A stretch of 63,694 nt of DNA, filler included, from Chrysochromulina tobinii (lineage: Eukaryota): NCBI GenBank assembly GCA_001275005.1. It is 8 parts of 8 records of this genome, joined end to end, with 100 filler letters (N's around TTAATTAATTAA, not from the genome) between each part and the next. Parts side by side here need not be neighbours in the genome. Positions count along the whole stretch, not along the records: positions 1 to 10,571 come from JWZX01000625.1; 7 more parts are not named here. One strand, written 5' to 3'. The position numbers and the translations under genes are program-made. Below the pieces are notes generated by a model, which had not been told where the DNA came from, ran no database searches, and saw nothing but the letters and a program-made list of their open reading frames with translations. This document shows positions 1 to 54,657 of this stretch, in pieces (within the stretch, counting starts at the first letter, position 1; each line of letters begins with the position of its first letter).

Positions 1-493
1 CGCGGCCAGCGAGTCCCCTGCTGTCTCGGTGAGCGGCTGGCACACGCGCTCGCACACGTCCTCAGTCGTTGCATCGACGAGCAGCGCGCCTCATGAAAGG
101 TGGGGTTGGGTGGGTAGTCGCCGCAGTCCCCCACGCGGATGCAGGGGCCGCTCGCAAGTGGCACGCAAGGGCTCATGTCCGTGCGCACGACGAGCCGCGT
201 GTCGTGTGACAGCGACGCGAGCGCGAGGGAGACTCGTGTTTCACTCGAGTCATCATCGACAGCAGGATCGTGCGATATTCTGCACAGATAATGCATGCAA
301 CATTGTCGTATCTCACGAATGTGGCCCTGCCGTCGACGCCCAACTCAACCCAAATTTGCATGCAAATTTGCGCTCTTGAAATTTTTGCATGCTAAATAAG
401 TTGAGCAAACGCAATCTGACACTTCTTGGAACGCTATTGGAGTGCAGTCGCTGGCCTTCAGCTCCGCGTCCGTGTCGGTGGAGTTTTGTCAGT

Positions 494-3400
494 ATGCCCG
501 ATGACGTCGGCGACACGGTTATGACCGTGGTGCCCTCGCCAATGACCTCGCCGCTGATCTCGCCGACGTCCACCCTCGCCCCTGACCTCGCCGTCGACCC
601 GCCCTCGCCGCTGATCTCGCCGGCGCTCAAGCTCACCTCTCCGACCTCGCCGCTGATCTCGCCGGCGCTCAAGCTCACCTCTCCGATGCTCAGTCCGAGC
701 TCGCCGCCCAAGGGCTTCATCCTCCGCAGCCCGGCCTTGCTCACGGTGGAGGAGGCTGAGACCGGCCTTCGGGCGATCGAGCAGCACACGCAGGAGATGG
801 AGGCGCTGCTGCTCATCGTGCAGCGCCTGCACGAGGAGCTGCTCGCGACGCGGGCGGGCCTGCTCAAGAAGCACGAGGACCTGATCGCGCAGCAGCTCTC
901 CCATCGACGCAAGCGCCATGACGAGGATGGTCTAAGCGTGCGCAACTCGCCCAAGACCGTCCAGGTAGAGAAGGTGGAGAGCAGCACGCCCCCATCGGAT
1001 TGCATGCTGATTGCATGCTGATTGTGTCCCTCATCAGGTAGAGAAGGTGGAGAGCAGCACCGCTCCGTCCTCACCGACCAACAGCAACGGCAGTGCAGCG
1101 TTCGGTTTGACGAACCCGAATTCGGCGCGGAGCACGCCGCAAGTCAGCCCGGACCGTCCGCTGCGCGCCGCGAAGCCTCAACTGTCCACCAGCGCCATCT
1201 CGGATCTCACCTCCCGAGATCTCACCTCCCGAGATCTCACCTCCCGCAACCTCACCTCCCGAGATCTCACCTCCCGCAACCCGACGTTTGATCGGGAGGT
1301 GTACGATTGGGTGTGCGAGATCACCAAGCTGTCGGACGTGAGCACGCGCGGGTGGCGCGTGTGCTACAGCGAGCGCTTCCTTGGCTCGATCAGCGAGTAC
1401 GTGTCGGATTGCATGCTGATTGCCCTCCTCATCAGCTGATTGCCTTCCTCATCAGCGAGCGCTTCCTTGGCTCGATCAGCGAGTACGTGTCGGATTGCAT
1501 GCTGATTGCCCTCCTCATCAGCTGAATGCATGCTGACGAGAAGCGCTACGTGCTCGGCTCGGAGCTCTGATGACGTCTAATGACCTCTGATGACCGCTGA
1601 TGACCTCTGATTGCCTCCCTCATCAGGTACGAGAAGCGTTACGTCCTCGGCTCGGAGCCGTTGACGAACCCGTTGACGAACCCTGGCGGGCTGCCGCCCT
1701 CGGTCGCGCCCTCGTTGACGAACCCGTTGACGAACCCTGGCGGGCTGCCGCCCTCGGTCGCGCCCTCGTTGCGAAGAAACGTGAGCCTTGATGAGGAGGA
1801 AGATGAGGACGGGGAGGTGGACGAAGAGATGGAAGGGGACGAGCGCAAGAAGCAGGAGCGCATGGAGCGCCGTCCCGAGCGCACCATCGACCTCGGGACC
1901 GCCGCCGCGCCTCGCTCGCCCAATGCGGCCACCGAGGACGGCCCAGGTGTGCTGATTGCATGCTGATTGCATGCTGATTGCATGCTGATTGCATGTCGAT
2001 TGCATGCTGATTGCATGTCGAGTGCATGTCGAGTGCATGCTGATTGCAATGCGGCCACCGAGGACGGCCCAGGTACCCCAATCGATGGCATGCTGATTGC
2101 ATGCTGATTGCCTCCCTCATCAGGTACCCCTATCGATGGGTGGGACGGCGCCGTCGTGGCAGTGCTCGGGCTCTTCGACAAAGGGAAGACGTTCGTTCTC
2201 AACCACCTGACGGACTCGCGGCTGCCCAGCGGCAAGAAGGTGCCGATTGCATGCTGATTGCCTCCCTCATCACCTGACGGACTCGCGGCTGCCCAGCGGC
2301 AAGAAGGTGTCGATTGCATGCCGATTGCATGCTGATTGCATGACGAGTACATGCCGATTGCATGCTGATTGCATGCTGATTGCCTCCCTCATCAGGTGTC
2401 GACCAAGGGCCTCTCCTTCAAGCACGTCGACGTCGATGGCACCAAGTTCATCGTGCTCGATTCGGAAGGCTCGTATGCGCCGGTCAAGGTGCTCATTGAT
2501 TGCTAATAGCTGATTGATGGCTGATTGATTGCTGATTAATCGGAGGGCTCGTATGCGCCCGTCAAGGTGGAGAAGGAGCTCTCGGTCGTCGGATTGCATG
2601 CGGATTGCATGTGGATTGCATGTTGATTGCATGCTGATTGCATGTCGATTGCGTCCCTCATCAGGTGGAGAATGAGCTCTCGGTCATCGAGAAGGAGATC
2701 TCGGAGCGCTTCATCCAGGACGTCATCTTCGACCTATCCGACTACTTTTTGTGCGTCGTCAACGACTTCACCTCGCTGATTGCATCGGATTACCTCTGAT
2801 TGCCTCTGATTGCGATGGATTGCCACCGATCGACTGCAGGTGCGTCGTCAACGACTTCACCTCGCTCGACCAGCGCTATCTGGACCAGCTCACGCGCTCG
2901 CTCCAGAACTCAAAGAAGCATTTTCAAGAGGTGATCGTGGTGCACAACTGCAAGACGGTCATGGAGCAGGAGGTGATGGACCACATCTTCCACAGCCAGA
3001 TCTGGGCGATCATTGCATGATTGCATGCTGATTGCATGCTGATTGCGTCCCTCATCAGGTGATGGATCACATCTTCCACAGCCAGATCCTCTACGTGTAC
3101 GGCCAGGGCAAGGCGCAGACCACACGCATCGCCGCGCCCAACCCCAAGACGGGCGAGCTCGAGGCCAAGGACGTTCTCTGGTTCAAGACTGACTTCAGCC
3201 GGCATGTAATCCTCCGCCAACGAGGACTGTGATTGCATGCTGATTGCATGCTGATTGCGTCCCTCATCAAGACTGACTTCAGCCGGCATGTAATCCTCCG
3301 CCAACGAGGACTGTGATTGCATTCTGATTGCATTCTGATTGCGTCCCTCATCAGGTGATCCTCGCCAATGAGGACTGTGATTTGGGCGACCGGACCAACA

Positions 3401-5649
3401 ACTGGACCTTTGCCCTGCTCAAGAACTGGCTGCGCTCCGCCTTCGTGCCCGTCAACCGCCGCTTCTCCGTCCTGCAATCGGTGCTGCAGAGCTGCAACGG
3501 GCGGCTCTCGGCCTCGCATGCTGATTGCATGCTGATTGCATGCTGATTGCATGCCGTTGCATGCTGATTGCATGGTGGGGCGGCTCGGCCAAAGGGGCGC
3601 CATGCTGATTGCATCCGCCATGCTGATTGCATGCGGATTGCATGCTGATTGCATGCTGATTGCATCCGCCATACTCGACCAAAGGTGCGCCATGCTGTAG
3701 CATCCGCCATGCCGATTGCATCCCTCATTGCATGCAGGCGCGATGCTTCATGCTGATTGCATCCCTCATTGCATGCAGGCGCGATGCTTCGTGCTGATTG
3801 CATCCCTAATTGCATGCCGGCGCGTTGCTTCGTGCTGATTGCATCCCTCATTTCATGCAGGCGCGTTGCTTCGTGCTGATTGCATCCCTCATTGCATGCA
3901 GGCGCAATGCTTCGTCGCGGCGTGACCCAGGCCTCCCTGGCGGCGTCGGTGAACGCGCACCTTCAGAGCCTCCTCGGCCACGCCAAGGCATGCGAGTGCG
4001 TCTTCCTCGACAATACGCTCCACATGCTGAGCAACGCCGAGTTGGTCGAGCTCCATAGCTGCCCTCACTGTGGGGAACCGTCGGGGGAGCTCGAACCGAA
4101 GACGTTTGATTACCCCCCCCCCTCCCCCCCAACCTGAGGACGTCTGATTACCCCCCTCATCAGGTGGGGAGCCTTCAGGGGAGCTCGGAAGGGTGCTTGC
4201 CGCCTTCGACCATTGATTGCCATTGATTGCCATTGATTGCCGCTAATGGCCTGCCTGATTGCACCCCTCATCAGGTGCTTGCCGCCTTCGACCAGTCGAT
4301 GGAGACGATCCGCAGCGCCGTGGTGGGCAGCCCGCCCTTCTGGCTGAGGCACATTGCGTCGACGCTCGCCGCCCGGGATGTCGGCCGAGATTGCCTCGAG
4401 CGCGAGCAGGTGAGAGATCGCACCCAGATTGCATCTCCGAAGGCCCTCCTCACCCCGAGATCATGTCGCTCTTGTGCAGGCGGCGATCGCCCAGGGCGAC
4501 GCGGCAATCATCGCGTTTACGGACGCTTGGGGCGGCGAAGGCGCTGTGGTGGTAACGGTTGATGCGCCAACGGCTCTCGAGGCCATGATTGCATCCCTCA
4601 TCAGGTGGCCGAGGTAGCCATGATTGCATCCCTCATCAGGTGGCGGTCGATGCGCCAACGGCTCTCGAGGCGCGCGTGCATGCGGCCATTGACGCGGCAC
4701 GGCGCCGTCTCGAGCACTTTCTGGCGGGCAAGACTCGTCCCGATTTGGAACATGTCGAGGCGGAGGTGCTCGAGACGGCGCCTGCTGAGCTTCGATTGTC
4801 GCCCTCATTTTCCATTGATTGCCGCTAATGGCCTGCCTGATTGCACCCCTCATCAGGTGCTCGAGCGCTTCGATTGTCGGGTGGCCGAGGTAGCCATGAT
4901 TGCATCCCGACTGCCTCCCTCATTGCATGCTGATGACCCTCCCTCATTGCATGCTGATGACCCTCCCTCATTGCATGCTGATGACCCTCCCTCATTGCAT
5001 GCTGATGACCCTCTCTCATTGCATCCCGACTGCCTCCCTCATTGCATGCACTCATATGGCTGCTCTGAGTGCTTCTCTGAGTGCTTCTCTGAGTGCATCT
5101 GAGTGCCCTCCCGATTGCGCCCCTCATCAGGTGGCCCAGCGCTGCCTCACTCGCAATAAGATGGGTGCCGCGTCCGCCAACCGCTCGCTTCGCATGGAGC
5201 TTGTTCGTGGGTACAACGAGAGGATCCGAGTTGAACTTGCGGCGGCGGCCGCCACTGTTGCAGGCGCGGGCGGCGGCGGCGGCGGGGGCGGCGACGGCAG
5301 CGGCGGCGGCGGCGGCGGCGGCGGCAGCAGCGCGGCGGCGCGAGCTCGCTTCGATGCGATTCGTGACGAATTCGGGCCGTTGGTGCGCCTCTACCTGTCG
5401 CGCTGTCAGGGCGGGGCGCTGTCGTGGGCGCCATTCGTGCTGCTCCAGGAGCAGCTTCGGATGGAGCAAGTCAATGCGCGCGAGAAGCTGCTGCGAGACG
5501 ATCTCGTCGCGGGCAGATCGCTCCCGCCCGTGTCGGAGCCGGTCAAGGACGCGGTGGCGCTAGCGAGGCTCTGTGGGGAAAGCGCCGTGCCCGCCTGGCT
5601 GCGCGAAATGGGAGCCGAGCCTCGGAACGCGGCGTCGAGCCTTGGATGA
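494..5649 (+). CDS. Multi-exon P-loop GTPase (GBP/atlastin/dynamin-like superfamily) with coiled-coil, low-complexity N-terminus; about 16 exons
   Basis: Hand splicing at GT..AG (965-1037, 1397-1626, 1947-2123, 2240-2395, 2489-2664, 2751-2839, 2973-3058, 3206-3354, ~3510-3901 unresolved, 4070-4163, 4193-4274, 4410-4479, 4552-4639, 4766-4856, 4881-5130) keeps the frame. It gives VVAVLGLFDKGKT (G1), STKGL (G2), FIVLDSEG (G3) and IVVHN (G4). Start ATG 494 is assumed. Confidence 0.8.
604..1770 (+). repeat. In-frame exonic tandem repeats in the GTPase N-terminus: 42 bp x2 (~604-686), 15 bp x5 (~1203-1277), 54 bp x2 (~1660-1770)
   Basis: SPLISPALKLTSPT, (D/N)LTSR and LTNPLTNPGGLPPSVAPS units are visible at DNA and protein level. 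Confidence 0.85.
965..5130 (+). repeat. Intronic (GCATGCTGATT)n-type satellite, usually ending in a CCCTCATCAG acceptor module
   Basis: The 11-nt unit and variants fill nearly every intron of the GTPase gene and most end in ccctcatcAG. Confidence 0.9.
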
Positions 5650-6352: not shown

Positions 6353-9300
6353 TCACCCATACGGCCCTGCACTCCATTGAGCATCCAGAGATGCCATGGT
6401 ATCCTCTGGCTGGTCGCGCATCAGCTGGACAAGCCGTCCAACATTGCTCGAGAATGTGGCAACCGCCCATTCAGATCGCATTATCAGTATCAGCTCTGCA
6501 TATAAGCGATACACGGATGCCCGCCCCCAATTCCTCGGCGGGCTGCCCTCTAAGCTGTGCGTCGTCCAGCTGTGCAGAATGGAGGCATTACACCTTGCAA
6601 ACTCGCTCACCACCTTGATGTCGTCTGTCGCGACAAATACATCTAAGCCACCACAGCGTCCCCGACACATTGAGGCCAGCCGATCGGCATATGCGCACGT
6701 TGCCAGAGGACGGGCTTCTAAATACTTGTCAGTGCGCCGGATGTGCACAGCAGCATATGCGTCCCGGCTCCAGGCCAGATCTGCAAGATATTCTCGGTGA
6801 ATGCGCGCTTCGATATCCGGTTGTACACGCAATATGAGCTTCGCAACAATACGCCATTTCTCCAAAGATGTGCCGCTCGCGCAGAGGCTCAGGCTAGAAT
6901 TTCTCCCCAGTACCTCGGCTGCTCTGTAGCACGCCCTTTCGAGTATCAGTCTGTCGTTTGAAAGCCGAAACCACTCATGGGCGCAGTGATGATGATTCCA
7001 GCCATCGACCATCAGAATGCTCGATCCGCAATTGCTGGCTGGTTGATAGAAGCAGTGTGGCTTCCCTCTGTCCTCAATTGCGCATACCATGTCGGACATC
7101 TGAAAGCCATGCCCTGTGCCCAAAGCGCCAACAGCTTGTGCCACGGCAGTGTTGACCAACGAACCAAATCCGCTGTCAGCTGCTCTATTTACAATCAGAG
7201 TCGTTTTGCATGTCAACAGCGTGTGCCGAGTGGCATCCCGGCATCCACAACTTGGGCAAATTTCTTTCGTATTCACGGCAACCGGCGTCCCTCGCCCCCA
7301 GAGCGTGCTTGTATGCCATCCCGATTTGAAGGGTACATAGGTGGCCTCAGGCCATTCGCATGTTGAGAGCCCTACGCACACTTGTCGGGGCTGACAAGGG
7401 CCAGCAGGGAACGACCCTGCACCCTTACGATCAGGCCCCTTAGGGATCCTAGGCGGACTGCCCGTCAGGCGACCATGAAGCGTGTTATTCCAGCTCCACC
7501 TCAACGTTGAGTTGGATCGCAGCTCCAGTGTATTTCTCGAGCTCAGTCTCAACGCCACTTTGCTGCTGCACTTGTGCAGCCGCATATAACCTTCGTGATC
7601 CGGCATGTTGAAAGGGTGCTTCCAGTTGTCAGTTTGGAATGGGACGTTTCGCGTGACAGACCTTCTCAGCCCATGGTTGCAGAGGTAGTTGCTGGGCTGC
7701 TGGGCGCAGTCCGGCTGCTCAACGACCACCCCGCCGACAGTAACGGACAGCATCTGACGACCCGTGCTCTTGTCCCTCCAAGATTGAACGCACGGCTGAG
7801 AAAAAGGGCAGATTTGGTCCAGGAAGTCCATTGTTGACTGCACAGTGTCGAGGCTGCCCGACGAGCGCCCACCAAAAATCACGCAACTTAAGTCACCTCG
7901 TTCATTCGATGTCGCGGCGCCGGTGGTGGTGTTGGTGTTGGGTCTTAGAGACTTGGGATACATGCGCGTCGCATGCTCGTACGTGAAGTCATCGAGTAGC
8001 TTGACCTGCGACGTGTTGAGGAACATCTGCAAAGCGCTGCTGTGCCACATGATGTCGTTGATCCGGTGCGTGTAGATGAGCGACCCCTGGTCAATGTGCC
8101 CGAGCCAGTCCTGCACGTCCCGCCGCATCCAGAAGCTCAGGCGCGTTACGAAGAAGTTGTTAGAGAAGCCATACAGCGGCCCACACAGCTGAAGCGAGAA
8201 GTTGCTGAGAAGCTCTGAGTAGGTAGGCCTCGTCGGGCTCCCATCATCGACCAACAGCCTCTCGCAAGAGTCGAGCAGCCACTTGGGCTTCAGCAACGGT
8301 CTCTTCTCGAGGTAGGAGCCTAAGAACCTGTGAAATACCTCACCGCCGAGGTCTTTCATTCCGCTCTCGTATGAGACCTGCCGGTACCCGTACTCCACGC
8401 CCTCTGCCTGGAGCTGGGTGAATATGTGGTAGTGGATGGGCGAGGCGAGGCGGCTTTCCTCATCCATTCGCATTACCCATTCATAGCCGAGCTCAGACGC
8501 AAAATCCCACAGCTTGATGGTTAAGAACCGGATCATGCTCCGGTAACCAATCGAAAACTTTGGGTACATCCTCCAGGTTGACAGGCAGGTCTCCGTCGTT
8601 GGCGAGAAGCACGGAGGGCTGCGTTCTGCAGTTGCGTTCACCCAAGGTGGCAGCGATAAGTATCTCGATTCAAGCCGCATGAACGAGATCGGCAGCTGCG
8701 GCTGCTCGTCCGAAAATGGGCTCAACACAAGCTCCTGCAACTGTGGCGAGTTGAACTTGCCAGTGTGCAGGAGGAGCGTTTCGTCCCGATGCCGCCGAAG
8801 ATAGTTGTTGACCAGCGATTCTAGTGACTGGCGAAGCTCCGCAAGGCTATCACGCCCATAGGACGAATGCTTGACCTGGGTGAGATACACGATCACGCCA
8901 CGTGCCCTCGTGCTCCGTGCATTAGAGAACAAATGCTCCAAGGTGGTCTGAACACGGGTGTCTTCCTTGGGTGCTCTGAAACGTTGAGCTCGACGTCGTG
9001 TCCGCCAGCCCGTAAGCTTGACGTCAGCTGGGGTAGAGCTCAGAGTCCCAGGGAAGTGGTCAAGTGCCGCCCCTCCTCCACCGGGTTTGATTGGAATTGG
9101 ATGGGCGTCGAGTAAAACGTCGGCTCCGCCTGACGATAACGTGGGAACTTGCAAACTCGACGAGAGATAGTAGCGGCAGCAGTACAGATGACACACCTCA
9201 GCCAAGGTTGAAGCAGGTTTTGGGTGTGTGCCTGTGCAACTGCTGGTGTGAGCCGGCTCGCAGCTTTTACAGCTGCGGCTCATACTCAGCATGTTCGAAT

Positions 9301-10534
9301 CCTGGACAACCGGTGATGGGACTTCTCCTTGATCGAATACTGGACAACTGGCGAGCCGCAACTCATAATATAACGATAGATTATGACGCAGGAGTAGGGG
9401 CTGGATCCGCGACTCCGCCCGAAACGTAATGTTGTTGAAGGCGCGCTTGCAGCGTGACATAAGGTAACTTTCGATCGTCCACGTCCCATTCTCATCGAGC
9501 AACGAGGTATTGTGCACCATGGAGAAGCCATTGAACCAGCAATCCATAATGTGCGAATGGCCTATGCCAAACTTGTCGAAGTTGGACTTTAAGAAAGTTG
9601 GGGATCCTATGGAGATGACGGGGAAGTCGTTTGTACCTAAGTTGAGGAGATGAGGCGGAGGGATTGGTGCTGCAAATATCAGGTCGGTGCGTAGGCGCAT
9701 CTTGTAAGCATAGGTCGAATCACCGGCCACGACAACATCGTTGATCATCGCGTTGCAAGCTTCCAGGTCACGCAGCTGGTAGAGTGCGCTTTGGATTCCA
9801 GGATGGGCTGTCTTTTGTCTCCGATAGGTGTAGTTGTAGGAGTGCCATCTGGCGTCAGTACTGACATAGGGAAGGCCCCGCTCTGGGCCACCCAGGCGGG
9901 TAAACATTCGATCTGGCTTGCCGTTCGGGTTCGAGGTGCGCGGCCTGAGCTTCTCGTAAATCATGGCGCTGCTGCCGTTGCCCGGGATGATCACAAAAAG
10001 GTCATATCCGCCAGAGCGCGAGAGCGGCGCGAAGATGTTGGTCTTGTACATGTCGGAGATGAACGTCGACGGACTGGCGGAGGACAGCGAGACGTTGTAC
10101 AGCATGTCACGCACACGAGTAGCTAAATGTCGATGTTTTTCACTGGCATATGCAGGAATTAATAAGACATCTTTGCCCAGGATGCCGCCCAGAGCTCGTG
10201 GCTGCCCCGTCAGACAAACTGCTGTACGACGAAGTGGAGCCGAGCCGTGTGCAAACATTGCGGTAGGCCGACCCTTTCTCCAGAACGGTGACTTGGTCAC
10301 TGAAGGAGTAGGCGGCGAGGGCGGGGTGGCGAGACCAAAAACCGGATCGAATGACTGCCACGTCGTTTGGCATCCAACGCTTGCCATCTTGTCGAAGCTG
10401 AAGAGGATAACCAGCCAGTCTCCGACTATTCCTTGCGTCCCGATTCGCATGGTGCTCTCTCCCATGAGGGACACGTGACGGATACCAGGGGGCTGAATTT
10501 CTGATCTGTGAACCGCTAGACGCGGCCTTTCCAC
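6353..10534 (-). CDS. Intronless multi-domain glycosyltransferase: unclassified GT-like domain + GT15 (KTR/MNT1 alpha-1,2-mannosyltransferase-like) + GT23 (FUT8/NodZ alpha-1,6-fucosyltransferase-like)
   Basis: 1393-aa ORF. AVCLTGQPR...MRLRTDL...DKFGIG (~10225-9380); GVIVYL, GYRSMIRF, YEWVMRMDEE, NNFFVTRLSFW, IYTHRIND (GT15, ~8910-7960); GFGS, AVHIRRTDK, VFVATDD, TFSSNVGRL (GT23, ~7200-6356). True start uncertain (first ATG 10465). Confidence 0.85.
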   Translation of the reverse strand: MERPRLAVHRSEIQPPGIRHVSLMGESTMRIGTQGIVGDWLVILFSFDKMASVGCQTTWQSFDPVFGLATPPSPPTPSVTKSPFWRKGRPTAMFAHGSAPLRRTAVCLTGQPRALGGILGKDVLLIPAYASEKHRHLATRVRDMLYNVSLSSASPSTFISDMYKTNIFAPLSRSGGYDLFVIIPGNGSSAMIYEKLRPRTSNPNGKPDRMFTRLGGPERGLPYVSTDARWHSYNYTYRRQKTAHPGIQSALYQLRDLEACNAMINDVVVAGDSTYAYKMRLRTDLIFAAPIPPPHLLNLGTNDFPVISIGSPTFLKSNFDKFGIGHSHIMDCWFNGFSMVHNTSLLDENGTWTIESYLMSRCKRAFNNITFRAESRIQPLLLRHNLSLYYELRLASCPVFDQGEVPSPVVQDSNMLSMSRSCKSCEPAHTSSCTGTHPKPASTLAEVCHLYCCRYYLSSSLQVPTLSSGGADVLLDAHPIPIKPGGGGAALDHFPGTLSSTPADVKLTGWRTRRRAQRFRAPKEDTRVQTTLEHLFSNARSTRARGVIVYLTQVKHSSYGRDSLAELRQSLESLVNNYLRRHRDETLLLHTGKFNSPQLQELVLSPFSDEQPQLPISFMRLESRYLSLPPWVNATAERSPPCFSPTTETCLSTWRMYPKFSIGYRSMIRFLTIKLWDFASELGYEWVMRMDEESRLASPIHYHIFTQLQAEGVEYGYRQVSYESGMKDLGGEVFHRFLGSYLEKRPLLKPKWLLDSCERLLVDDGSPTRPTYSELLSNFSLQLCGPLYGFSNNFFVTRLSFWMRRDVQDWLGHIDQGSLIYTHRINDIMWHSSALQMFLNTSQVKLLDDFTYEHATRMYPKSLRPNTNTTTGAATSNERGDLSCVIFGGRSSGSLDTVQSTMDFLDQICPFSQPCVQSWRDKSTGRQMLSVTVGGVVVEQPDCAQQPSNYLCNHGLRRSVTRNVPFQTDNWKHPFNMPDHEGYMRLHKCSSKVALRLSSRNTLELRSNSTLRWSWNNTLHGRLTGSPPRIPKGPDRKGAGSFPAGPCQPRQVCVGLSTCEWPEATYVPFKSGWHTSTLWGRGTPVAVNTKEICPSCGCRDATRHTLLTCKTTLIVNRAADSGFGSLVNTAVAQAVGALGTGHGFQMSDMVCAIEDRGKPHCFYQPASNCGSSILMVDGWNHHHCAHEWFRLSNDRLILERACYRAAEVLGRNSSLSLCASGTSLEKWRIVAKLILRVQPDIEARIHREYLADLAWSRDAYAAVHIRRTDKYLEARPLATCAYADRLASMCRGRCGGLDVFVATDDIKVVSEFARCNASILHSWTTHSLEGSPPRNWGRASVYRLYAELILIMRSEWAVATFSSNVGRLVQLMRDQPEDTMASLDAQWSAGPYG

Positions 10535-11492: not shown

Positions 11493-11705
11493 ATGGCGTC
11501 TACCTCAAGCGTGAGCTTGTCCACGGCCGAACTCAAGCGTGAGCTTCGCGAACTGGGTGCAACGTCCGCACGGCTGGCGCAGTGCATCGAACGCCCGGAC
11601 TTTGAGGCGCTTCTTCGCGAGATGTTGGCAAGCGGCGCAACCAAACAAGCCCACCGACACGCGGAGCCGACCATCACAGAGGAAGAACGTTCTGCGGCCA
11701 AGGTT

Positions 11706-11744
<39 letters not shown>

Positions 11745-31877: not shown

Positions 31878-34800
31878 AGCTGGGGGACGAGCCGAGCTTG
31901 AAGGGCGTGTCCGAGGAAGACGTCGCTAAGGCGCTTGCGGGCATTGTGCAGCGCTCGTGGGCAGCCGATCAGGACGGCGCCGGCACGACGACCAGCACGG
32001 CGCCGGGAGATGCGGCGGGCGAGCGCGAGCGCGGCTGGTGGTACGGGCGGCACGCTCTCGACATGGCGATGCGAGTGCCACTCACCGAGTCGGAAAAGCG
32101 CGAGTCGGCGCTCGCGAGAGCGCTCCAGCTCGAGGAGAGCGTCTCTCCTCCAATGGAGGCTTCGTCACACGCGCAGCCCAACGGCGACTGCGGCGGCGGC
32201 GGCTGCTGTGCGGAGCGCAAGCTGAGTTTAGTCCCTGGCTGGTCCAGCATTGTCTTCAGCGTCCAGAATTGGGGCTCGTTCTTGGAGCCGGGCGTCTTCG
32301 ATGTGGCGCACGAGCCTGCCCCTTCACCTGAGGGCGCACCTGCTGCTATGGAGACGCGTGACGCGGAGCTCGCAAGCAGCTACTCCGAGCGGTATGCACT
32401 GGCTGCGAGCAGCGTACAGAGCTTCTGCGGCACGATCCGAGATTGGTTTGCGCCCACGAAGTATGTGGCCTCGACGGCCTTCGTTACCTTCCGCTACGCT
32501 GCGGATGCCGACGAGGCGGTTCGTGCCATCGGCCGACTGCGTCGGGCGCCGTGCCGCCGCGTCTGCAGCGTCATCATTGAGCCCATTCGGCGGTGTATCT
32601 GCGGTGCTCAGACGAGCTTCCACGGATTGCACGCGCGCCGCGCCCCCGAGGTGGACGACGTGATTTGGAAGAACCTGTGGCACGACACGTGGATGCGTCG
32701 GCACGTGCGCCCGCTCGCAAGCAACGCCTTCTACATCAGCTGCTGCACCATCTTCTTCATGTTCATCCTCTCGATGACGCATGCAAAGCTCTCCCTCGCC
32801 ATGGGGGTCGGCCTCGACGAGACCTTCTCTGACGACACCGACCCATCGGTCTATGACGAAGCCGTGCTCTGGATCTTTGAGACTCTCGGGCTGGGATACC
32901 TCGACGAGCAGTGGGTGCTCGTCACGGCGCTCTTCTTCTCGCTGCTCATCAAGATCCTCAACGATCTCCTGCTGAGCCCGTACATTGTCAACCTCGTCCC
33001 CAATCCGCTGCGCGGCGCGGAGTGGATGGTTCGTAAAGAGCGCCTGCCCTCGGCCTCGCGCGAGCAGCTGCGCCTGATGACGCTGATTACGGTCGTCTAC
33101 ATCACCAACTACGTGATTGTGCTCTTCATCGCGCACACGCCGCTCGCTCAGCGGCACGAGACGCTCGTCTCGCTGCTCAAGCAGCGCACGGGCGCGCGGG
33201 CGAATGACCTCGACCAATCTCGGCTCTACATGACCGACTTCCTCTCGGGCTGTTTCGATCAAGTCAACGAGCACATGTGGATGGCAGTACGCCCACCGCT
33301 CTGCCATGCGAATGGATGAGATGAATGCCGTCCCTCCTTGCACGCTGATGACCGCTGAGTGCCTCCCTTCTCAGGTACCTGGTCGCCTCTCTTGATGACC
33401 CCTAATTGCCTCCCTCCTCAGGTACCGATGCTCCTCGTGCTCCAGGGCCTACTCAGCCTGCTCGACGTGCCGCAGATCGTGCAGGACGTCTTCGGGCGCG
33501 TCGTGTCGGGCGTCACACTCGTGCTGACCCTCGTGTACAGCTACGCCTACTTTTGCTGGAATCTGCGCTCCTTCACACACGACTCCCTGTTCCTCGAAAA
33601 GGAAGACGAGTGCAATCCGCAGTCGCTCGTGCGGGCATGGAGGAGCTTCCAGATCGTCCTGCAAGACGACATACGATTCATCGCCGATCACGCCGCAAAT
33701 GACACGTGGTACACTGGCGCGACCGGCCTGATCCCGACGATGATCATCCTGCTCGTGCTCGAGGTCGCGTATGGGCCGTTACTTGAGGATGGCATCACCT
33801 TCGTCACCATGCGCCTCGAGCGTCTACTCTCGCGCAGGCATACCAGCCAGGAGGCCATCAACAAGGCTTTCGAGCCGCCCGAGTTTGCCTTCGCCTACCG
33901 GTACGCCTCGTGCCTCAAGATTGCGGCGATCGTGCTCGTCTTCGCACCGGCGGCGCCGATTCTCTATTTCGTGGGCACGGCCGTAGTGGCCACGTCCTTT
34001 GCCATCCAGAAGCTCGCGCTCGTCAAAATGTACCGGCGGCCGCGCGCCCTCGATGCGTCCCTGGCCGAGCGATCGCGCACCGTTCTCTACCTGCTCCTCG
34101 TGCTCAAGACGCTCGCAGCGTGCCTCTTCCAGGCAAGGGCCTCTGATGGCCTCTGATGGCCTCTGATGGCCTCTGATGGCCTCAAGACACTCACGGCGTG
34201 ATGTCCTCAAGACACTCACAGCGTGTCTCCTTTGCAGGTGCGCCAGGCACTCGTGGCGCAGAGCGTCAATGGCTCTGATCTGGACCTCGTCGAGGACAGG
34301 TGCGCCTGATTGCCTCTGATCGCCTCTGATCGCCTCTGATCGCCTCTGATCGCCTCTGATCGCCTCTGATCGCCTCTGATCGCCTCTGATCGCCTCTGAT
34401 CGCCTCTGATCGCCTCTTGTTTGGATCCCTCGAGGACAGTGTGCCGCTCATCATCGCGATCGTGGCCGTCATCATCTACGGCGCCGTTGACTTTGGCGTC
34501 GCGCCGTGTCTCAAGGGCTTCGGACGCTCAATCGGCACGTCGGAGGGGGAGGAGAAGCAGATGCGCTACATGCAGGCGCGTGCGAGGATCCCCCTGGCTT
34601 TGTGATTGCCCACCCTCGATGCATGCTGATGACCGCTGATGACGTCCGTACATGCAGGCGTGCGAGGAGCTCCCTGGGTTTGCGCCGTACGCACCCGACG
34701 AGGGCTCAGGTGTACACCTCAAGTCAACGTCCCGCAGGGCATGGGGCAGCGCTACCCGCGCCCTACTCCGTAGTAGCTCCTTGACGAGCCGACGTGGGGG

Positions 34801-43249: not shown

Positions 43250-45284
43250 TTATCCACGTGGTCCCGAGCAGTTGAACGCCCACCACCACTGTTTGGTTAG
43301 GCGCGGCGTCCAGCATGCGGCGCTTGAGCACTTCTCCATCCACGTGGCGGCGCCGCGCTCGCTCAGCCACCTGATTAGGGTTTGCTATTAGGGAGGCCAT
43401 CAGAGAGGCCATCAGAGAGGCCATCAGAGAGGCCATCAGAGAGGCCATCAGAGAGGCCATCAGAGAGGCCATCAGAGAGGCCATCAGAGAGACGATCCGT
43501 GGTAACCAATCGGATAACCAATCGAGGTACCATACTCAGGAGCAATCAGCGTACGTACCGCGTCAGATTGAGCTTGAAGAATCGGGATGAGCGCGGAGGT
43601 CGGCCCCAGCCGAGGCTCTGGTTGTGGTCATGGCTGAGCATGCGCATGCGCATGTTGCGACGAAACGGAAAGCTGCCAGCGCGACCCATATTAGGCAGGC
43701 TGCCGTTGAGCCGCAGCAGCTGCTGTCGTCGGCTGACGAACCCGGGAATCTCCAAGGGCTTCGGCGTGGCCGGGAGAGAGGCCAAACCGTCACCAGCAGC
43801 ACTGGCACTTCTGCCGTCATCATGGGCACCGCCAACACCGTAACCAACATCGTTGGCGGCTTTCGGGGCGCCATGGTGGGCGCCCGCCACAGAACCGACG
43901 CGTACGAGAGGGGCCGCGCCCGATGCAACGCTCGGGACGGCGCTCGAGGCGAGCCAATTATAGATGAGGGTGGACCACGTGTCGACGGGCCCCGGCATGC
44001 AGTAGTGCAGGCAGTCCTCCTTGACCTTGCCCGCATCCCCCCAGAAGCGTGCCATGGCCGCGTCTGGTCGCATGGCCGACGGCGCCGCGATGTCCAGGTA
44101 ATGGATGCCCGCGCCGCGCGCGACGTACCTGATTAGGGACGTCACCAGAGGTCATCAGAGGTCATCAGAGTTCATCAGAGACATATCAGAGACAATCAAT
44201 CCATCAGGAGAGGCCAGCCAGAGCGCCGTGTCGAGCGCATGGCACGTACGAGGCCGCCACGTTGAGACGGGCGTACGAGAGCCACATGGGGCTGTCGATG
44301 GTGCGCCTGTGCTCGTAGTGGGAGGTGGCGTACTGGGCGAGGCTGATGGGTGCACGGAAGCGTGAGCAGCCCGCGACTGGCGACGAGATCCCGACAAGCA
44401 GTATGGACGCCGCCGCGTCCGCGTGTCCATACGCCTCGCGCGCGGCAATGAGGTGCGTGAGCGTGTGGTTCAGGCTGAAGGGAAGGAAGGCATTGTACTG
44501 CAGCCGCGCGCGTAGGGGCGCTCTCTTGGCGCCGCTCGGACCTCCCTGGTAGTCTAGAGCCATGTCGAGGCTGCCCGTGAAGTGATGGCCAACCCCCAGC
44601 ACGACGATGTCGGCATCTCGGGCGGCGCGCACGGCGAAGTTCTGCAGGCTCAGGACGCCGTCAGAATGCACTTAGCATGCACTCAGGGGAGCACTCAGGG
44701 CATACATGTATACGTCACCCGAAGAGCAGGGACGCAATCAGCATGCACTCAGGGCGCGTCACCTGCATGCTCAGGAAGCCGTCGCATCGCTTGGCGCTCA
44801 TGAGGTCACCCACGTTGCTCGTGTAGAGCACCAGGTCATTGCGCACAAACGCCAGGCGCGTCGCGTCGCCGCAGGCCGAGGCCGTGATCTCGGACACGGT
44901 TGACGCCTTCTTCACATTCTTGCCGAGCTGTGCTCCCAGCAGGAGCGCGAACGACAACCACAGTTGAAAGACCGTCGAATCGCCTACCATCAGAAGTGAC
45001 TTACCGCGAAGCACCTCGCACACGCCTTGGACGCTGAACTGGTCGAGCCGGCACCGATGCGGCTGCCATTCGTAGAGGATACGGTTGGGAGTCACCCTGT
45101 CGCATCGACCGTAGTTTTGGGGCGTTGTGCTCTTGATGGTCGTCCCGAGCTGCTCCCAAAAGTGTGCAAGGATTTTGTAGCGGTGGTGGGTAAACGGGAC
45201 CCAGTCGCCGTCCGTGTAGTCGTGCGTGGGCGTGCCAGGCGACGAGAAGCAGCGTCCGCGCTGTTGGGCCGCGGTTAAAGCCAT
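43250..45284 (-). CDS. Trichome-birefringence-like / PC-esterase (SGNH polysaccharide O-acetyltransferase-like), 3 introns
   Basis: GDWV, YEWQPHRCRL, LRGKSLLMVGDST, DIVVLGVGHH, DCLHYCMPGPVDTW. Introns 44642-44762, 44129-44249 and 43371-43558 keep the frame to TAA at 43250. Confidence 0.87.
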
Positions 45285-49059: not shown

Positions 49060-49897
49060 CGCATTCTTCTTTGTGGTTTACCGGTATCCTCCCCGTTTTC
49101 CCCACACGGTGAGACGGCCCGGCGCCACTCTCACGCGACTCACGCTCGGCGTGGGCGCCCCCATTCACAATGAGAAAAGAGGGGCTGCTTTCTTTCTTCA
49201 ATTCTGTGCACCCTTCAAAATCGGCCACATCGCCGACATAGACTCCAAGAAACGCTTCCCGAGCCCCCGATTGCTGCACAGCGGGCTCTCTCTTCCTGTG
49301 CTGCTTGCGTGCATCTGCCGTAGCATACGATGTCAACGCGTGGTGCCGATCGGATCCTCCTCCGAATTCCCTTCCCTCGCTCTGTGTAGCTGTAGGGCTA
49401 TGTAGTCTGTAGCTGTCCGCACTCGTGGGTGCCTCGGGTGACGCGGACACGCGATTGTTAGGCGAGGTGAGATGCGAGGTGCCTGAAGTTGCAAACGAAG
49501 AAGTGTCGAAGTTTGTGTCCTATCCAAATTAACTATTAAGCTTTCCCCCTAACTCTCGCTCGCTGCCACACCAATGTATTTAGGAAGGACTAGTACTAGT
49601 TACTTAGTTTGCCAGTCTAGTACTCCCCTGACCCTGTGTCGCCCCTGGCCTCTACCCTGCACAGTCGAATTAAAGACTCAGTCTAGACGGGACCGTCGCC
49701 GCTGCCAACAGAACACCGTGCTCGACCGCCGTGAGCGACGCACGGCCCAGCGCGCCCGTGAGCATGCCGTGCGGCGACAGCTTCAGGCTCACCGCGGNNN
49801 NNNNNNNNNNNNNNNNNNNNNNNNNNNNNNNNNNNNNNNNNTTAATTAATTAANNNNNNNNNNNNNNNNNNNNNNNNNNNNNNNNNNNNNNNNNNNN

Positions 49898-52800
49898 AGA
49901 GCCGTCGTAGACGCTCTTGGCGTCGGACACCCGGAAGAACTCCTGCTTGCTTGTGAAAACCGGTCTGCCATTGAGGACGCCCAAGGCCGGGAGCGCTTCG
50001 AGCTTCTCGAGCTCTTTCCACGCTTCCTCTTCTGAGTTGACGCGTCTCCCCCTTTCTGGCAGGAATTGCAGGGCCTCCTTGCGTGGCCGAAAGACGAGGT
50101 GGACGCGATACACCATCACCGCCGTCATCCTCTTGAAATCGATCTCGTTCACGCCCCACAGCCGGCAGGCCACGTAGCACGGCTCCCGCTTCCGTTCCAT
50201 CATATCACTCAAAAGCTCGTTCGGCGGCACGCCCCACCACCGGGATATCTCGACCATGCGTGGCGGCGGGCCGAGAATTTGCGAGGTCTCTCGGCGCAGT
50301 GGCACCGCTCCGAGTCCAGAGGGCGCAAGGTCTACGACTCCCGCAGCGGCATGATCGGACATTCCCGCAGCAGGAGAGGGTTCGCGGGAGGGAGCGGGCG
50401 GCGGCAGATCGTCTTCCGGGTCGTCGTAGCCAAACAACGACTTCAGGTAGGACAGGCTGCTGCTTATTGTGCCTGTCTCGTTCCGCGCCGCAGCCGCAGG
50501 AGCAGCGGCGCCACATGAGTATGGGGTGGTGCGCGTCCGGCCATTGTCCCGATGCCGAGAATTGGCGACCATGGGCGGCGGGCCGAGTATTTGCGAGGTC
50601 TCTCGCCTACTGGATCTACTGGCGAACCACCTGAAGTTCCAGTAGATCCAGTAGGCCATTAGGACAAACATGAAAACGTCGTCGAGGTCGAGAAGGATCC
50701 AGTAGTCGACTACGATCTTGTACCCGCACATGCCGCACCACCTCGAGGCAACGGTCGCGGCAACGTCGGCGACCTCCGCCGCCGCCGCGGCGCATCGCGC
50801 ATCCGCGCTTGCGACGAACGCAACCATCGTGGGATCGACGGTGCCCGCTGCGGAGCTGGTCGTGGGCTCGGCGGCGCACGTGCCGGTGCACCGTGAGGCG
50901 TAGAGGAAGAAGATTACATTGTGCATGATGACGCCGTACACTAAGTAGTGGCACGCCTCGTGGTACACGTCGAGCGCCGTCGAGTAGGGCAGCGCGGGCA
51001 GCGAGTCAGAGGACGTGTATTTGATGCAGGTAAGCGTAAGGAGGATGGTGAACGTGAGCGCGAGCCGATCGTGGATTTCAACCGCCGGGATGAACGTCGA
51101 TGCGCACGCGAGCGCGGCGATCACGCCCGGATGAACGAGGAACTTCATCACGAATTGCTGATTAATGCGACGGATGCCAATGCACATCGTGATACCCGAC
51201 TGCTCGCCCTTAGCATTCTCGTTCCTGACTAGCTGGGTCTTGTTCGGGAGGATATCCCAGTCGAAGAGGCTTTTCTTGACGTCCGGCTTCACCTCGAGGA
51301 TGCCTTGGCCGCCCTCCTCCTTGGCCTTGATGCCCTCCGATTTCACACGCATGTTGGGGTCGCAATGGAGCTCGTACATCTTGTCCTTGTGCTTCTTGGG
51401 GAGGAAGAGCTTGACACTGAGCTCGTGCGCGTCGAAGGGGAACTCTTCGAAGTTCAAGTCGAGCTGCACGTCCGTCGCCTCGATCTGGCCCGTCAGGACG
51501 GCGATGGTGCCCTCGCGCTCGGGGTCAGTGGGCAGAGGCGGGAACCAGATGGGCACTTCGTCAGAGCCGTCGTAGACGCTCTTGGCGTCGGACACCCGGA
51601 AGAACTCCTGCTTGCTTGTGAAAACCGGTCTGCCATTGAGGACGCCCAAGTTCGGGAGCGCTTCGATCCGCTCGAGCTCTGTCCACTCTTTCTCTTCCGA
51701 GGTGACGCGTCTCCCCCTTTCTGGCAGGAATTGCAGGGCCTCCTTGCGTGGCCGAAAGACGAGGTGGACGCGAAACACCATCTCCGCTCGCATTCTCGTG
51801 AAATCGATCTCGTTCACGCCCCACAGCCGGCAGGCCACGTAGCACGGCTCCCGCTTCCGTTCCGTCATATCCAACAGAAGCTCGTTCGGCGGCCCCCCCC
51901 ACCACCGGGAACTCGGGAACCCGCAGCGCCTCGCCTCCTCCATTGTCAGCGCATCCAGCGCCGCCGCCCGCCGCTGCCCGCCCGGCCCATACTGCTGCCG
52001 CGATGCGAGCATCTTCTGCAGCGCCTCTGCGAGCCGCTCGTCGTTATTGTACCACTCGAACGGGTGCCCAAGCTCGTTCCTCTGCACGTCCTTGCGAAAC
52101 TCGCCCAGCACCATCTCCGTGCCATACGGTGTGGCCAGACCCTCCGTGCGCAGCGCCTGCCGCACCTCCGCCTCGACCCCGACCACCATGTCTTGCAACA
52201 TCTTCTTGCGCTTGCCGATCACTTGCTCGATGGTGAGCGACGTGAGGTTGACGCTCAGCTTCACCTCGACGACGAGCACCGTGCCCTCGACGCGCGAGCC
52301 GCGCACCTCGAGCCCCGTGAGCGGGTTGAAGAGGATTTCCTCCTCGAATGGGTACTGCGAGAGGAAGGAGATGTCGGCGCCGCGATCGATCATGCCTTGC
52401 TGGATCTCGAAGATCAAAGGAGCGCTTCTGCCGCTCGCTGCGTACTTGATCGCCTCCTCACGCTTCAATGTCGTCGACATGAAGGCACTCTCGATACCAC
52501 CGCGCACGCCGTACTTGTTGGGCGTCCAGAACTGATCGGGGAGCACCATATCGTGGATGCCGCGGTACACCGTCGACGCCTTGGTCAGCTTGCTGAGCTT
52601 GACGATCGCCGAGTTGAGCGCGTGCAGCGTCGTCGTGTACTTGTTGACGCGTCGCGCTGCCCCTTCGAATGCATCGCGCGTGTGCTCGCGCAGCGCCGCC
52701 TCGTCCGCCGCCGTCGGCTTGCGCTCGTCAAACGACGGCTCCTCTGCTAGGCGCTTTGCCTTGGCCTCCTCGGCAGCTTCCGCGTGCGACGCCGCGTCCT

Positions 52801-54358: not shown

Positions 54359-54657
54359 AGCGAAGGCTCTTGGCTCGGCCGGGCTTCGCGTTCGCGTCCG
54401 CGCGTCGGCGGCCGGGCTTCACGAGAACTCACACGAGGTTCCGCGCGGAAAAGAGTGCTCAATCGAGTCCACACAGTTTCGTCACGTACCTTGTACATGT
54501 ACGACCTGAAACAACACTGTCTCTACGCACCCTCTCGGTCAACACAAGTACGGGACTCGCTCCTTCGTTTGGGTTTCGTCATGAAACCGTCAAAGAGTTT
54601 TTCTTGTCGTGACGCTCACGCTCGCCGCACGTCGAGTTGCGCTTTGCTCTGGCCTCC

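What the first reader, a model, noticed from the sequence alone, without database searches (positions are those of the whole stretch)
962..5130. Apparent intron-generating system: introns built from a copy of the flanking exon plus a branch-point/acceptor module
Seen: most of about 15 introns in the GTPase gene begin with, or contain, a 20-50-nt copy of the adjacent exon. CTGAT-rich repeats follow and the intron ends in ccctcatcAG, after which the true exon restarts with the same sequence. Examples: caggtagagaaggtggagagcagcac at 962-987 and 1035-1060; gtgcgtcgtcaacgacttcacctcgct at 2751 and 2840; gtgcttgccgccttcgacca at 4193 and 4275. The exon's own GT becomes the donor and splicing restores the frame with no scar. 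Known: Introner elements (Micromonas, Aureococcus) create introns as TIR DNA transposons with short fixed TSDs. Here there are no TIRs, duplications are long and variable, and the filler is an iterated repeat. Inference: introns arise by templated, iterative synthesis during repair or target-primed copying rather than by a discrete transposon.
Basis: partly seen in the sequence, partly recalled or inferred. Interest (0 to 1): 0.9.

Follow-up and report, generated by a model that had tools for sequence, protein, structure and literature searches.

The report
Introns seeded by copied intron ends
In this alga many introns consist of a copy of the neighbouring exon followed by the tail of another intron, and some are missing in near-identical relatives, so new introns are likely being made by DNA-copying jumps onto existing introns and not by a jumping gene.

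Summary
The anatomy is real. 12 of 15 intron sites in 962-5130 hold a 20-52-nt copy of adjacent exon, then CTGAT-type repeats and an acceptor. Correction: the stretch is two genes joined at 3550, most likely by mis-assembly. Gene 2's six junctions are bridged by RNA contigs; gene 1's are not, but removing its 12 introns gives an open 783-codon frame that matches an intronless paralog.
The introns are gains. Homologs are continuous at these sites. Two such introns in L053 are absent from a 99%-identical relative, and three window introns appear absent in relatives' predicted proteins.
Mechanism clues: 3-7-nt microhomology at the copy-to-filler joint (p=6e-5); one intron tail is 92/93 identical to a paralog's intron end; copies differ from their exons mostly at silent sites (16 of 19); no TIR, no fixed duplication length. 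Best reading (0.6): template switching during repair copies an existing intron end and re-enters upstream at GT. The enzyme is unknown. Another alga shows the same layout with telomere-like repeats.
Each ingredient is known; I found no paper on the self-seeding combination. The scan noted a related intron in this genome before (e1-2577349) and read it as a mobile element.

The parts
494..3550 (+). Gene 1, 5' part: GTPase (MMR_HSR1/GBP-like) plus HSP20 family gene; HSP20 part and three more introns lie in L059 5403-6236, not in the window
   Evidence: 783 codons without stop after removing 12 introns on L059
965..1037 (+). Intron 1: 23-nt exact copy of the next exon (plus shared CAG), CTGATTGCATG repeats, CCCTCATCAG
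   Evidence: no RNA
1397..1626 (+). Intron 2: nested; 86-nt duplication of upstream exon end plus module, then 30-nt copy of next exon (2 silent differences), CTCTGATGAC repeats, acceptor
   Evidence: no RNA
1947..2123 (+). Intron 3: two layers; holds a 40-nt copy of the intron-free exon junction (2049-2088)
   Evidence: no RNA
2240..2395 (+). Intron 4 (K|V site): two layers; 36-nt upstream plus 7-nt downstream copy; shares a rare repeat variant with the polymorphic intron at the same site in paralog L053
2489..2664 (+). Intron 5: two layers; 52-nt copy of the intron-free exon junction (2540-2591)
2751..2839 (+). Intron 6: 27-nt exon copy plus tail copied from the paralog's intron (2774-2866 is 92/93 identical to L053 10687-10779)
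2973..3058 (+). Intron 7: 30-nt exon copy (1 silent difference) plus module
3206..3354 (+). Intron 8: 28-nt exon copy with one extra base, inside an 84-nt tandem duplication
3481..3550 (+). Intron 9, 5' part: 34-nt exon copy plus repeats; its acceptor is in L059 (5402)
3551..3899 (.). Chimeric join through the repeat array; repeats of another locus
   Evidence: RNA contigs run on about 530 nt beyond 3514 and before 3900 on sequence not placed here
3900..5643 (+). Gene 2, 3' part, no family assigned
4070..4163 (+). Gene 2 intron: 24-nt exon copy (3 silent differences) plus module
   Evidence: RNA contigs X13, X14, junction inferred from letter counts
4193..4274 (+). Gene 2 intron: 20-nt exact copy plus CCATTGATTG repeats; tail identical to that of 4766-4856; appears absent in relatives
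   Evidence: RNA X13, X14; P0124-P0127 continuous, 4 of 4
4410..4479 (+). Gene 2 intron without exon copy or CCTCATCAG; older type
   Evidence: RNA X13
4552..4639 (+). Gene 2 intron: 32-nt copy plus a 29-nt copy of the exon/intron junction at 4880-4908; appears absent in relatives
   Evidence: RNA X13 spliced, X14 unspliced; P0126, P0127 continuous, 2 of 2
4766..4856 (+). Gene 2 intron: interrupted copy plus module shared with 4193-4274; appears absent in relatives
   Evidence: RNA X16, inferred from 33 letters between pieces, 2 of 2
4890..5130 (+). Gene 2 intron: repeats and CCCTCATCAG, no exon copy; present in P0127; likely local donor
   Evidence: RNA X16

Best explanation
These are recently gained spliceosomal introns made of an exon copy plus the tail of an existing intron, likely created when a DNA end being repaired jumps by a few matching bases onto a branch-point repeat, copies it through the acceptor, and likely re-enters its own gene 15-60 bases upstream at a GT. 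Shown: the product exon-T-filler-AG-T; scarless restoration of the frame; absence in close relatives; microhomology at the T-to-filler joint; specific donors for several fillers (a neighbouring intron, a nearby repeat tract, a paralog's intron end). Inferred: the order of events; that donor tails ending AG|GT anneal at a G/AG|GT in the recipient and so hand it a donor site; that the repeat grows by slippage during or after copying; that events lacking usable splice sites are purged from exons but survive in introns and near gene ends; that each new intron becomes a further donor, so the process feeds itself. The polymerase or pathway (theta-type end joining, microhomology-primed strand invasion, or an RNA-templated equivalent) was not identified.
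For: Presence/absence: L053 10295-10371 (32-nt copy + module) is missing from L051 with 1 mismatch in 352 and 1 in 226 flanking bases; L053 6460-6573 (28-nt copy + repeats) is missing from L051 with 1 in 327 and 1 in 129, and its repeat unit stands 120 nt downstream in both. Three window introns appear absent in P0124-P0127. Polarity: intronless paralog L002-L005 and many distant homologs align as one block across the sites. Splicing: 6 of 6 gene-2 junctions (three inferred from letter counts); nine GT-AG joints in L053, three of them exon-copy introns. Microhomology of 3 nt or more in 11 of 17 testable events of 24, about 2 expected; sum 50 over 16 events against 18.7 for simulated blunt joints, p=6e-5. 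Donor traced: 2774-2866 = L053 10687-10779 at 92/93, with 4 shared bases on the left and 27 on the right; 4193 and 4766 introns share 50 nt; 4552 intron holds 29 nt of 4880-4908. Copy-versus-exon differences are 16 silent, 3 replacement (random expectation 22% silent, p 2e-8; neutral-intron model 37%, p 3e-5), so some copies descend from a diverged coding homolog and not from the target itself. 27 of 37 CCT[CA]ATCAG sites are followed by GT. The same duplication-plus-filler occurs where it cannot be an intron: antisense near a stop codon (L059 about 6880-6990) and without acceptor (L059 6560-6630).
Against: No RNA shows gene 1's junctions: the contigs that crossed them carry the paralog's letters at 21 of 21 listed sites. 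Two of the three exon-copy joints in L053 have 34 and 43 letters that fit both sides, where contig assembly can mislead; four other L053 candidates (1563, 4177, 6132, 6573) have no joint listed. 7 of 24 fillers start with sequence found in no other filler, and 6 of the 17 testable ones show under 3 nt of microhomology. Events were picked by hand and most come from two genes. The two cleanly polymorphic introns have perfect copies, which a target-site duplication also gives. The silent divergence of copies (about 10% per silent site) is far above that of sampled alleles of the paralog (3-4 of 623 codons) and far below the paralog (38%), and copies follow their own exon at 69 of 75 sites where the paralog differs, so the donor of most silent differences is unidentified. 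A recurring end (CCTCCCTCATCAG) is element-like. No whole genome was held, so an autonomous element elsewhere is not excluded.
Confidence: 0.6

Rival explanations
1. A short non-autonomous retroelement (non-LTR or Penelope-like) inserts by target-primed reverse transcription; T is a long variable target-site duplication and the repeat array is the element's body or tail.
For: Variable 7-58-nt duplications, recurring end CCTCCCTCATCAG, microhomology at one joint, very many copies (DNA word depth 103,482 over 1422-1608 against 43-72 in single-copy bins; not a copy number). Non-LTR introners exist (5% of classified ones, PMC12130899 passages). Earlier scan note e1-2577349 read a related intron as a mobile family.
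Against: Fillers differ in unit and end, and several trace to specific neighbouring or paralogous introns including donor exon sequence. Duplications of 30-58 nt are longer than usual for non-LTR elements (recalled). Silent-site bias is not expected of a target-site duplication. No RT among 13 long ORFs of the window (window only).
Confidence: 0.15
2. Plain tandem duplication of an AG|GT-containing exon segment makes the intron first; branch-point repeats invade or expand later under selection for better splicing.
For: In-frame exonic tandem duplications of 42, 15 and 54 nt occur in gene 1. Introns 3-5 hold copies of the intact exon junction ending in the exon's AG. L053 6460-6573 takes both sites from AG|GT. 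Nested duplications and repeat-number changes occur inside existing introns.
Against: Several introns have no AG upstream of the copy (2751 ttt, 4070 act, L059 5812 ccc), so the acceptor came with the filler. Both clean polymorphisms show copy and filler present or absent together. A bare 20-40-nt duplication is probably too short to splice (inference).
Confidence: 0.1
3. Intron transfer among paralogs or alleles by homology-driven gene conversion, with imprecise ends that leave the duplication.
For: Intron 6 tail matches paralog L053 at the same site. The polymorphic L053 intron sits at the site of window intron 4, shares a repeat variant found only at these two sites in the sequences held, and its copy runs on with four bases of the window gene's exon. 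Silent-site bias fits coding donors.
Against: Explains sites shared between paralogs only (2 of 10 scored). Local donors at other sites (4193/4766, 4552, L053 6460) and antisense or acceptor-less events need microhomology jumps. It is best seen as a special case of the main model.
Confidence: 0.08
4. A telomerase-like enzyme adds branch-point-bearing repeats iteratively to broken ends, which then rejoin upstream.
For: L061 shows the same layout with degenerate (CCCTAA)n fillers. TTAGGG is the haptophyte telomere repeat and interstitial tracts are pervasive in Calcidiscus (PMC13518057 passages). Priming on a few matching bases is typical of telomerase (recalled). AACCCTAAT occurs in some fillers here.
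Against: Units in this genome vary (10, 11, 12, 24 nt), which one RNA template does not give. Long unique filler stretches have DNA donors. L061 is a single 1059-nt contig without RNA.
Confidence: 0.05
5. The duplications are assembly artefacts.
For: The window is chimeric at 3550, so repeats do mislead assembly here. Only short-read contigs were seen.
Against: L057-L059 carry identical gene-1 sequence; a DNA run has contigs through 3876-4237 and 4250-4861; copies differ from exons by substitutions; RNA skips them.
Confidence: 0.02

Closest known systems
[quoted passage not shown]
   Same: Recent polymorphic introns, direct repeats, repeated and parallel events at the same sites.
   Different: Here the direct repeat is a 15-58-nt exon copy that supplies the donor, and the filler is copied from existing intron ends, so it brings branch point and acceptor and can seed further introns.
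Intron gain by tandem genomic duplication (defined in PMC3296678 passages)
   Same: A duplicated exon segment supplies the GT, sometimes the AG; splicing restores the frame.
   Different: A foreign filler lies between the copies and often supplies the AG; many events per gene.
Intron transfer between paralogs by gene conversion (defined in PMC3296678 passages)
   Same: Window intron 6 and L053's polymorphic intron share sequence with a paralog's intron at the same site.
   Different: Only the 3' part moves; the 5' part is the recipient's own duplicated exon; donors are also non-homologous neighbours.
Introners: Polarella/Symbiodinium classes with TSD-derived donor and element-borne acceptor (bioRxiv 10.1101/2020.10.14.339549, parts 1-2 of 4); Chrysochromulina sp. 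family 5, 4-bp TSD, no TIR (PMC9860276 passages); non-LTR introners (PMC12130899 passages)
   Same: Donor from the duplicated target, acceptor from the insert, many related introns.
   Different: TSDs in the text read are fixed at 3-8 nt per class; here 7-58 nt. No fixed 5' end, no TIR. The 2022 survey required similarity at both intron ends and removed low-complexity families, so this class would have been filtered out.
Polymerase-theta / synthesis-dependent microhomology-mediated end joining with templated insertions (PMC7407515 passages)
   Same: Microhomology priming, iterative rounds, insertions templated from nearby DNA, duplications with inserts from within 200 bp in rice.
   Different: Tracts here (31-180 nt) exceed the 1-25 nt quoted per round; donors can lie on other contigs; no enzyme tested.

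Membership tests
TIR DNA-transposon Introner | Terminal inverted repeats at the insert ends | tested here: not met
   24 events: filler-end complementarity 0-2 nt in 23, 5 nt in one; only the internal CTGAT/ATCAG 5-mer pairs (3-8 nt); 5 of 6 introns fold no better than shuffles
TIR DNA-transposon Introner | Short fixed-length target-site duplication | tested here: not met
   Copy lengths 7-58 nt over 24 events
Introner (survey definition, PMC9860276) | Similarity between introns reaching both splice boundaries | tested here: not met
   5' parts are locus-specific exon copies; only 3' tails are shared
Introner (survey definition, PMC9860276) | Presence/absence with scarless splicing | tested here: met
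Non-LTR / target-primed retroelement insertion | Variable-length target-site duplication | tested here: met
   perfect copies in both clean polymorphisms
Non-LTR / target-primed retroelement insertion | One family consensus with a constant end | tested here: inconclusive
   CCTCATCAG ends 12 of 14 window introns, but units and other ends vary
Non-LTR / target-primed retroelement insertion | Autonomous RT partner sharing the end | not testable with these tools
   No genome held; none among 13 long window ORFs
Tandem genomic duplication intron gain | Intron wholly derived from duplicated gene segment with AG|GT | tested here: not met
   All 24 events carry 31-180 nt of filler; several lack an upstream AG
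Break repair with templated filler | Direct repeat flanking an insert templated from genomic DNA | tested here: met
Break repair with templated filler | Junction microhomology | tested here: met
   11 of 17 events with 3 nt or more; p=6e-5 against blunt joints
Break repair with templated filler | Dependence on a repair polymerase or pathway | not testable with these tools
   Needs genetics or mutation-accumulation data
Paralog intron transfer | Same position and shared intron sequence in paralogs beyond exon identity | tested here: met
   Met for intron 6 (92/93), suggestive for intron 4; not seen at the other scored sites

The most novel reading that the evidence does not exclude
Haptophytes run an element-free, self-amplifying intron factory: any intron end made of branch-point repeats and AG|GT is copied by microhomology template switching into new exon sites, the return jump automatically creates the donor, and each product is a new template. 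It operates in separate lineages with different repeats, including the telomere hexamer, and accounts for a large share of their introns while escaping Introner surveys.
Probability: 0.4. Interest if true: 0.9.

Novelty: new variant of a known kind. Interest (0 to 1): 0.78.

Why it matters
How new spliceosomal introns arise is a long-standing question, and bulk gain is credited almost wholly to transposons. Here gains still segregate among close relatives, carry readable junctions and in several cases a traceable donor. That makes repair-based and paralog-transfer models testable event by event. If the process is self-seeding it is a route to many introns with no element or transposase, in a class that published surveys filter out. 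In practice the exon copies confuse assemblers, gene finders and splice aligners: this window is itself chimeric at such a repeat.

Tried and rejected
One-gene model: no donor/acceptor pair across 3440-3960 gave an open frame; rejected. A second haplotype as source of the divergent RNA contigs: rejected, they are the intronless paralog. Module searches: 0 matches in viral contigs with three patterns; 1 in genome contigs, at the end of a bacterial contig, not used. No whole genome or record handles. Microhomology test: one search was inflated by three nested self-copies; one search masked too much of the module and gave a weaker result (sums 14 vs 6.2, 12 vs 3.4, and 0 vs 0.8 for seeds 5, 6, 7); searches are the corrected versions. 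One indel-caused difference was dropped from the silent/replacement count (one search gave 11/3, used as 11/2). The site classifier scores copy-type introns as continuous even in the window gene, so only single-block homologs were trusted; some of those loci may be transcripts. CTGAT/ATCAG as a hidden TIR: only 5 nt and internal, rejected. Rfam: no match in 102 kb. Gene 2 has no Pfam family. Lack of RNA cover over gene 1's 5' exon is not evidence of silence. Ten literature searches found no description of this intron type in haptophytes. The Emiliania genome paper was not held; my memory that it reports 10-11-bp repeats in introns is unchecked. No supplements were read; the Introner family lists of PMC9860276 and PMC12130899 could hold related families.


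Full report
What is there. The stretch belongs to a prymnesiophyte-like haptophyte: the nearest named hits to one exon are Prymnesium parvum proteins at 86% and 77%. No whole genome was held. I modelled 14 complete GT-AG introns and one truncated one in 962-5130. Twelve of these 15 sites hold a clear copy of adjacent exon, and 12 of the 14 complete introns end in CCTCATCAG. In 115 kb of non-redundant sequence, 17 of 29 repeat-bearing acceptors have an upstream copy scoring 15 or more, against 160 of 1808 control sites. Two of the 17 are intron-on-intron duplications, and outside the two genes only 4 of 13 are strong exon copies.

Two genes, not one. Window 1-3550 is identical to L058 and L059 and parts from them inside a CTGATTGCATG array. 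In L059 the gene continues with an HSP20 domain like its family. Removing 12 introns (11 GT-AG, 1 GC-AG) gives 783 codons without a stop. From the GTPase domain on, it aligns to an intronless paralog (L002-L005) with no gap at any junction, dS 0.53 and dN 0.056. 3900-5643 is the 3' part of an unrelated gene. The join is most likely a mis-assembly through the repeat.

Splicing. RNA contigs bridge all six gene-2 junctions; three are inferred from the count of letters between pieces, and one run also holds 4552-4638 unspliced. A DNA run covers 3876-4237 and 4250-4861 unspliced. The RNA contigs over gene 1 come from the intronless paralog (21 of 21 listed letters), so gene 1 has no RNA support. 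On L053, four RNA runs show nine GT-AG joints. Three are exon-copy introns: 10295-10371 (3 of 4 runs), 11648-11740 (4 of 4) and the minus-strand intron ending at 19631 (2 of 4). In the first two, 34 and 43 letters fit both sides, so only the third is free of assembly ambiguity.

These are gains, and recent. Many homologs align as single blocks across the sites; those with introns have them elsewhere, except the paralog L051-L056. L053 carries a 77-nt intron (32-nt perfect copy plus module) that L051 lacks, with 2 mismatches in 578 flanking bases. It also carries a 114-nt intron (28-nt copy plus CCTAATTGCCT repeats) that L051 lacks, with 2 mismatches in 456. Within the finding, predicted proteins P0124-P0127 read through neighbouring intron sequence yet run straight across 4193-4274 (4 of 4); P0126 and P0127 also run across 4552-4639 and 4766-4856 (2 of 2). 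I did not see their DNA, so partly spliced RNA is a residual alternative. Of the 7 proteins returned, P0121-P0123 start at the exon and are uninformative for 4193-4274.

Where the filler comes from. Window 2774-2866 is 92/93 identical to L053 10687-10779, the end of the paralog's intron plus 27 nt of its exon; L051, L052 and L056 differ at 3, 4 and 3 sites. The left joint shares CGCT. The 4193 and 4766 introns share 50 nt and both precede GTGCT; the 4552 intron holds 29 nt of the junction at 4880-4908. The polymorphic L053 6460 filler repeats a unit that stands 120 nt downstream in both relatives. Other fillers match only the common module.

Junction signature. Of 24 hand-picked events, 17 had a filler start found elsewhere; 11 of these share 3-7 nt with the end of the copy, about 2 expected. 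Simulated blunt joints run through the same pipeline gave 18.7 against 50 observed over 16 events, p=6e-5. Earlier versions of the test were flawed in both directions. Copy lengths run from 7 to 58 nt. There is no TIR. 27 of 37 module ends are followed by GT. Duplication plus filler also occurs antisense near a stop codon, without an acceptor, and nested in older introns, so the process does not aim at making introns.

An unexplained clue. Copies differ from their exons at 16 silent and 3 replacement sites; in gene 1 that is about 10% per silent site and 0.5% per replacement site. A neutral intron copy would not do this. Some copies therefore descend from, or were converted by, a diverged coding homolog. 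The sampled paralog is too distant (copies follow their own exon at 69 of 75 discriminating sites) and sampled alleles of the paralog are too close (3-4 of 623 codons). The donor is not identified.

Mechanism. I commit to repair-type template switching (0.6). A growing end at the far side of segment T pairs by a few bases with a branch-point repeat, copies through the acceptor, and pairs again at the GT that starts T, or over longer homology when the donor is a paralog. The product, its recency, the microhomology and several donors are shown. The order, the selection filter, self-seeding and the enzyme are inferred. A target-primed retroelement (0.15), duplication first (0.10), paralog transfer alone (0.08) and telomerase-like addition (0.05) remain.

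Beyond this genome. L061, a 77%-identical homolog on a 1059-nt contig, shows the same layout at other sites with degenerate (CCCTAA)n fillers, which contain a CTAAC branch-point motif. Pervasive interstitial TTAGGG tracts are reported in an intron-rich coccolithophore, with no link to intron origin in the passages read (PMC13518057).

Comparison with print. Seen as passages: PMC9860276, PMC12130899, PMC4202315, PMC3296678, PMC7407515, PMC4580454, PMC13518057, bioRxiv 2024.05.26.595999. Seen as parts 1-2 of 4: bioRxiv 2020.10.14.339549. Seen as abstract: PMC11782384. Break repair with filler, tandem duplication, paralog transfer and Introners with TSD-derived donors are all described. It fails the TIR-Introner tests and works most like templated break repair. 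Ten searches did not return this anatomy in haptophytes; subscription papers and supplements were not covered. The 2022 survey's filters would exclude it. This scan had noted a related intron elsewhere in this genome (e1-2577349; unchecked AI note) and favoured a mobile element. I agree on the footprint and differ on mechanism.

Verdict. Real, recent, spliced where testable, and mechanistically informative. New variant of known kinds; interest 0.78.

Noticed in passing
L061 1-1059: Homolog from another alga with exon-copy introns whose fillers are degenerate telomere-like CCCTAA repeats, one tract in the G-rich orientation, at positions not shared with the window gene.
   Followed up: partly
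window 3551: The window is chimeric here: two other assemblies continue differently from inside a repeat array.
   Followed up: yes
window 1947-2123, 2240-2395, 2489-2664; L059 5975-6131: Two intron-like units lie back to back with AG|GT between them, a layout that could be spliced recursively.
   Followed up: no
L059 about 6880-6990: Duplication plus module in antisense orientation three codons before the stop of a minus-strand gene; its start matches gene 1's intron 9 over 10 shared bases and beyond.
   Followed up: partly
window 4410-4479; P0121, P0126, P0127: A second filler type (GAGATTGCATCTCCG-like). Relatives show an upstream-exon copy in this intron, and P0121 joins the same read-through to a formin-like (PF02181) sequence.
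   Followed up: partly
window 599-686, 1203-1276, 1659-1775: In-frame exonic tandem duplications of 42, 15 and 54 nt in gene 1, pointing to a high background rate of short duplications.
   Followed up: partly
window 33289-34658 (+), 43371-44762 (-): Other genes have repeat introns (CTCTGATGGC, CTGATCGCCT, CCCTAATCAG ends) with only short or decayed exon copies.
   Followed up: partly
window 49853-54418 (-): 1522-aa open frame with weak ADP-ribosyltransferase (PF01129, PF03496) and ligand-gated ion-channel membrane (PF02932) matches.
   Followed up: no
L002-L005: The GTPase-HSP20 family has an intronless expressed paralog beside the 12-intron copy; the fusion also occurs in ciliates and chlorarachniophytes, function unassigned.
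   Followed up: partly
L001 1531-1561: The module sits at the very end of a bacterial MAG contig, probably a stray eukaryotic piece.
   Followed up: no
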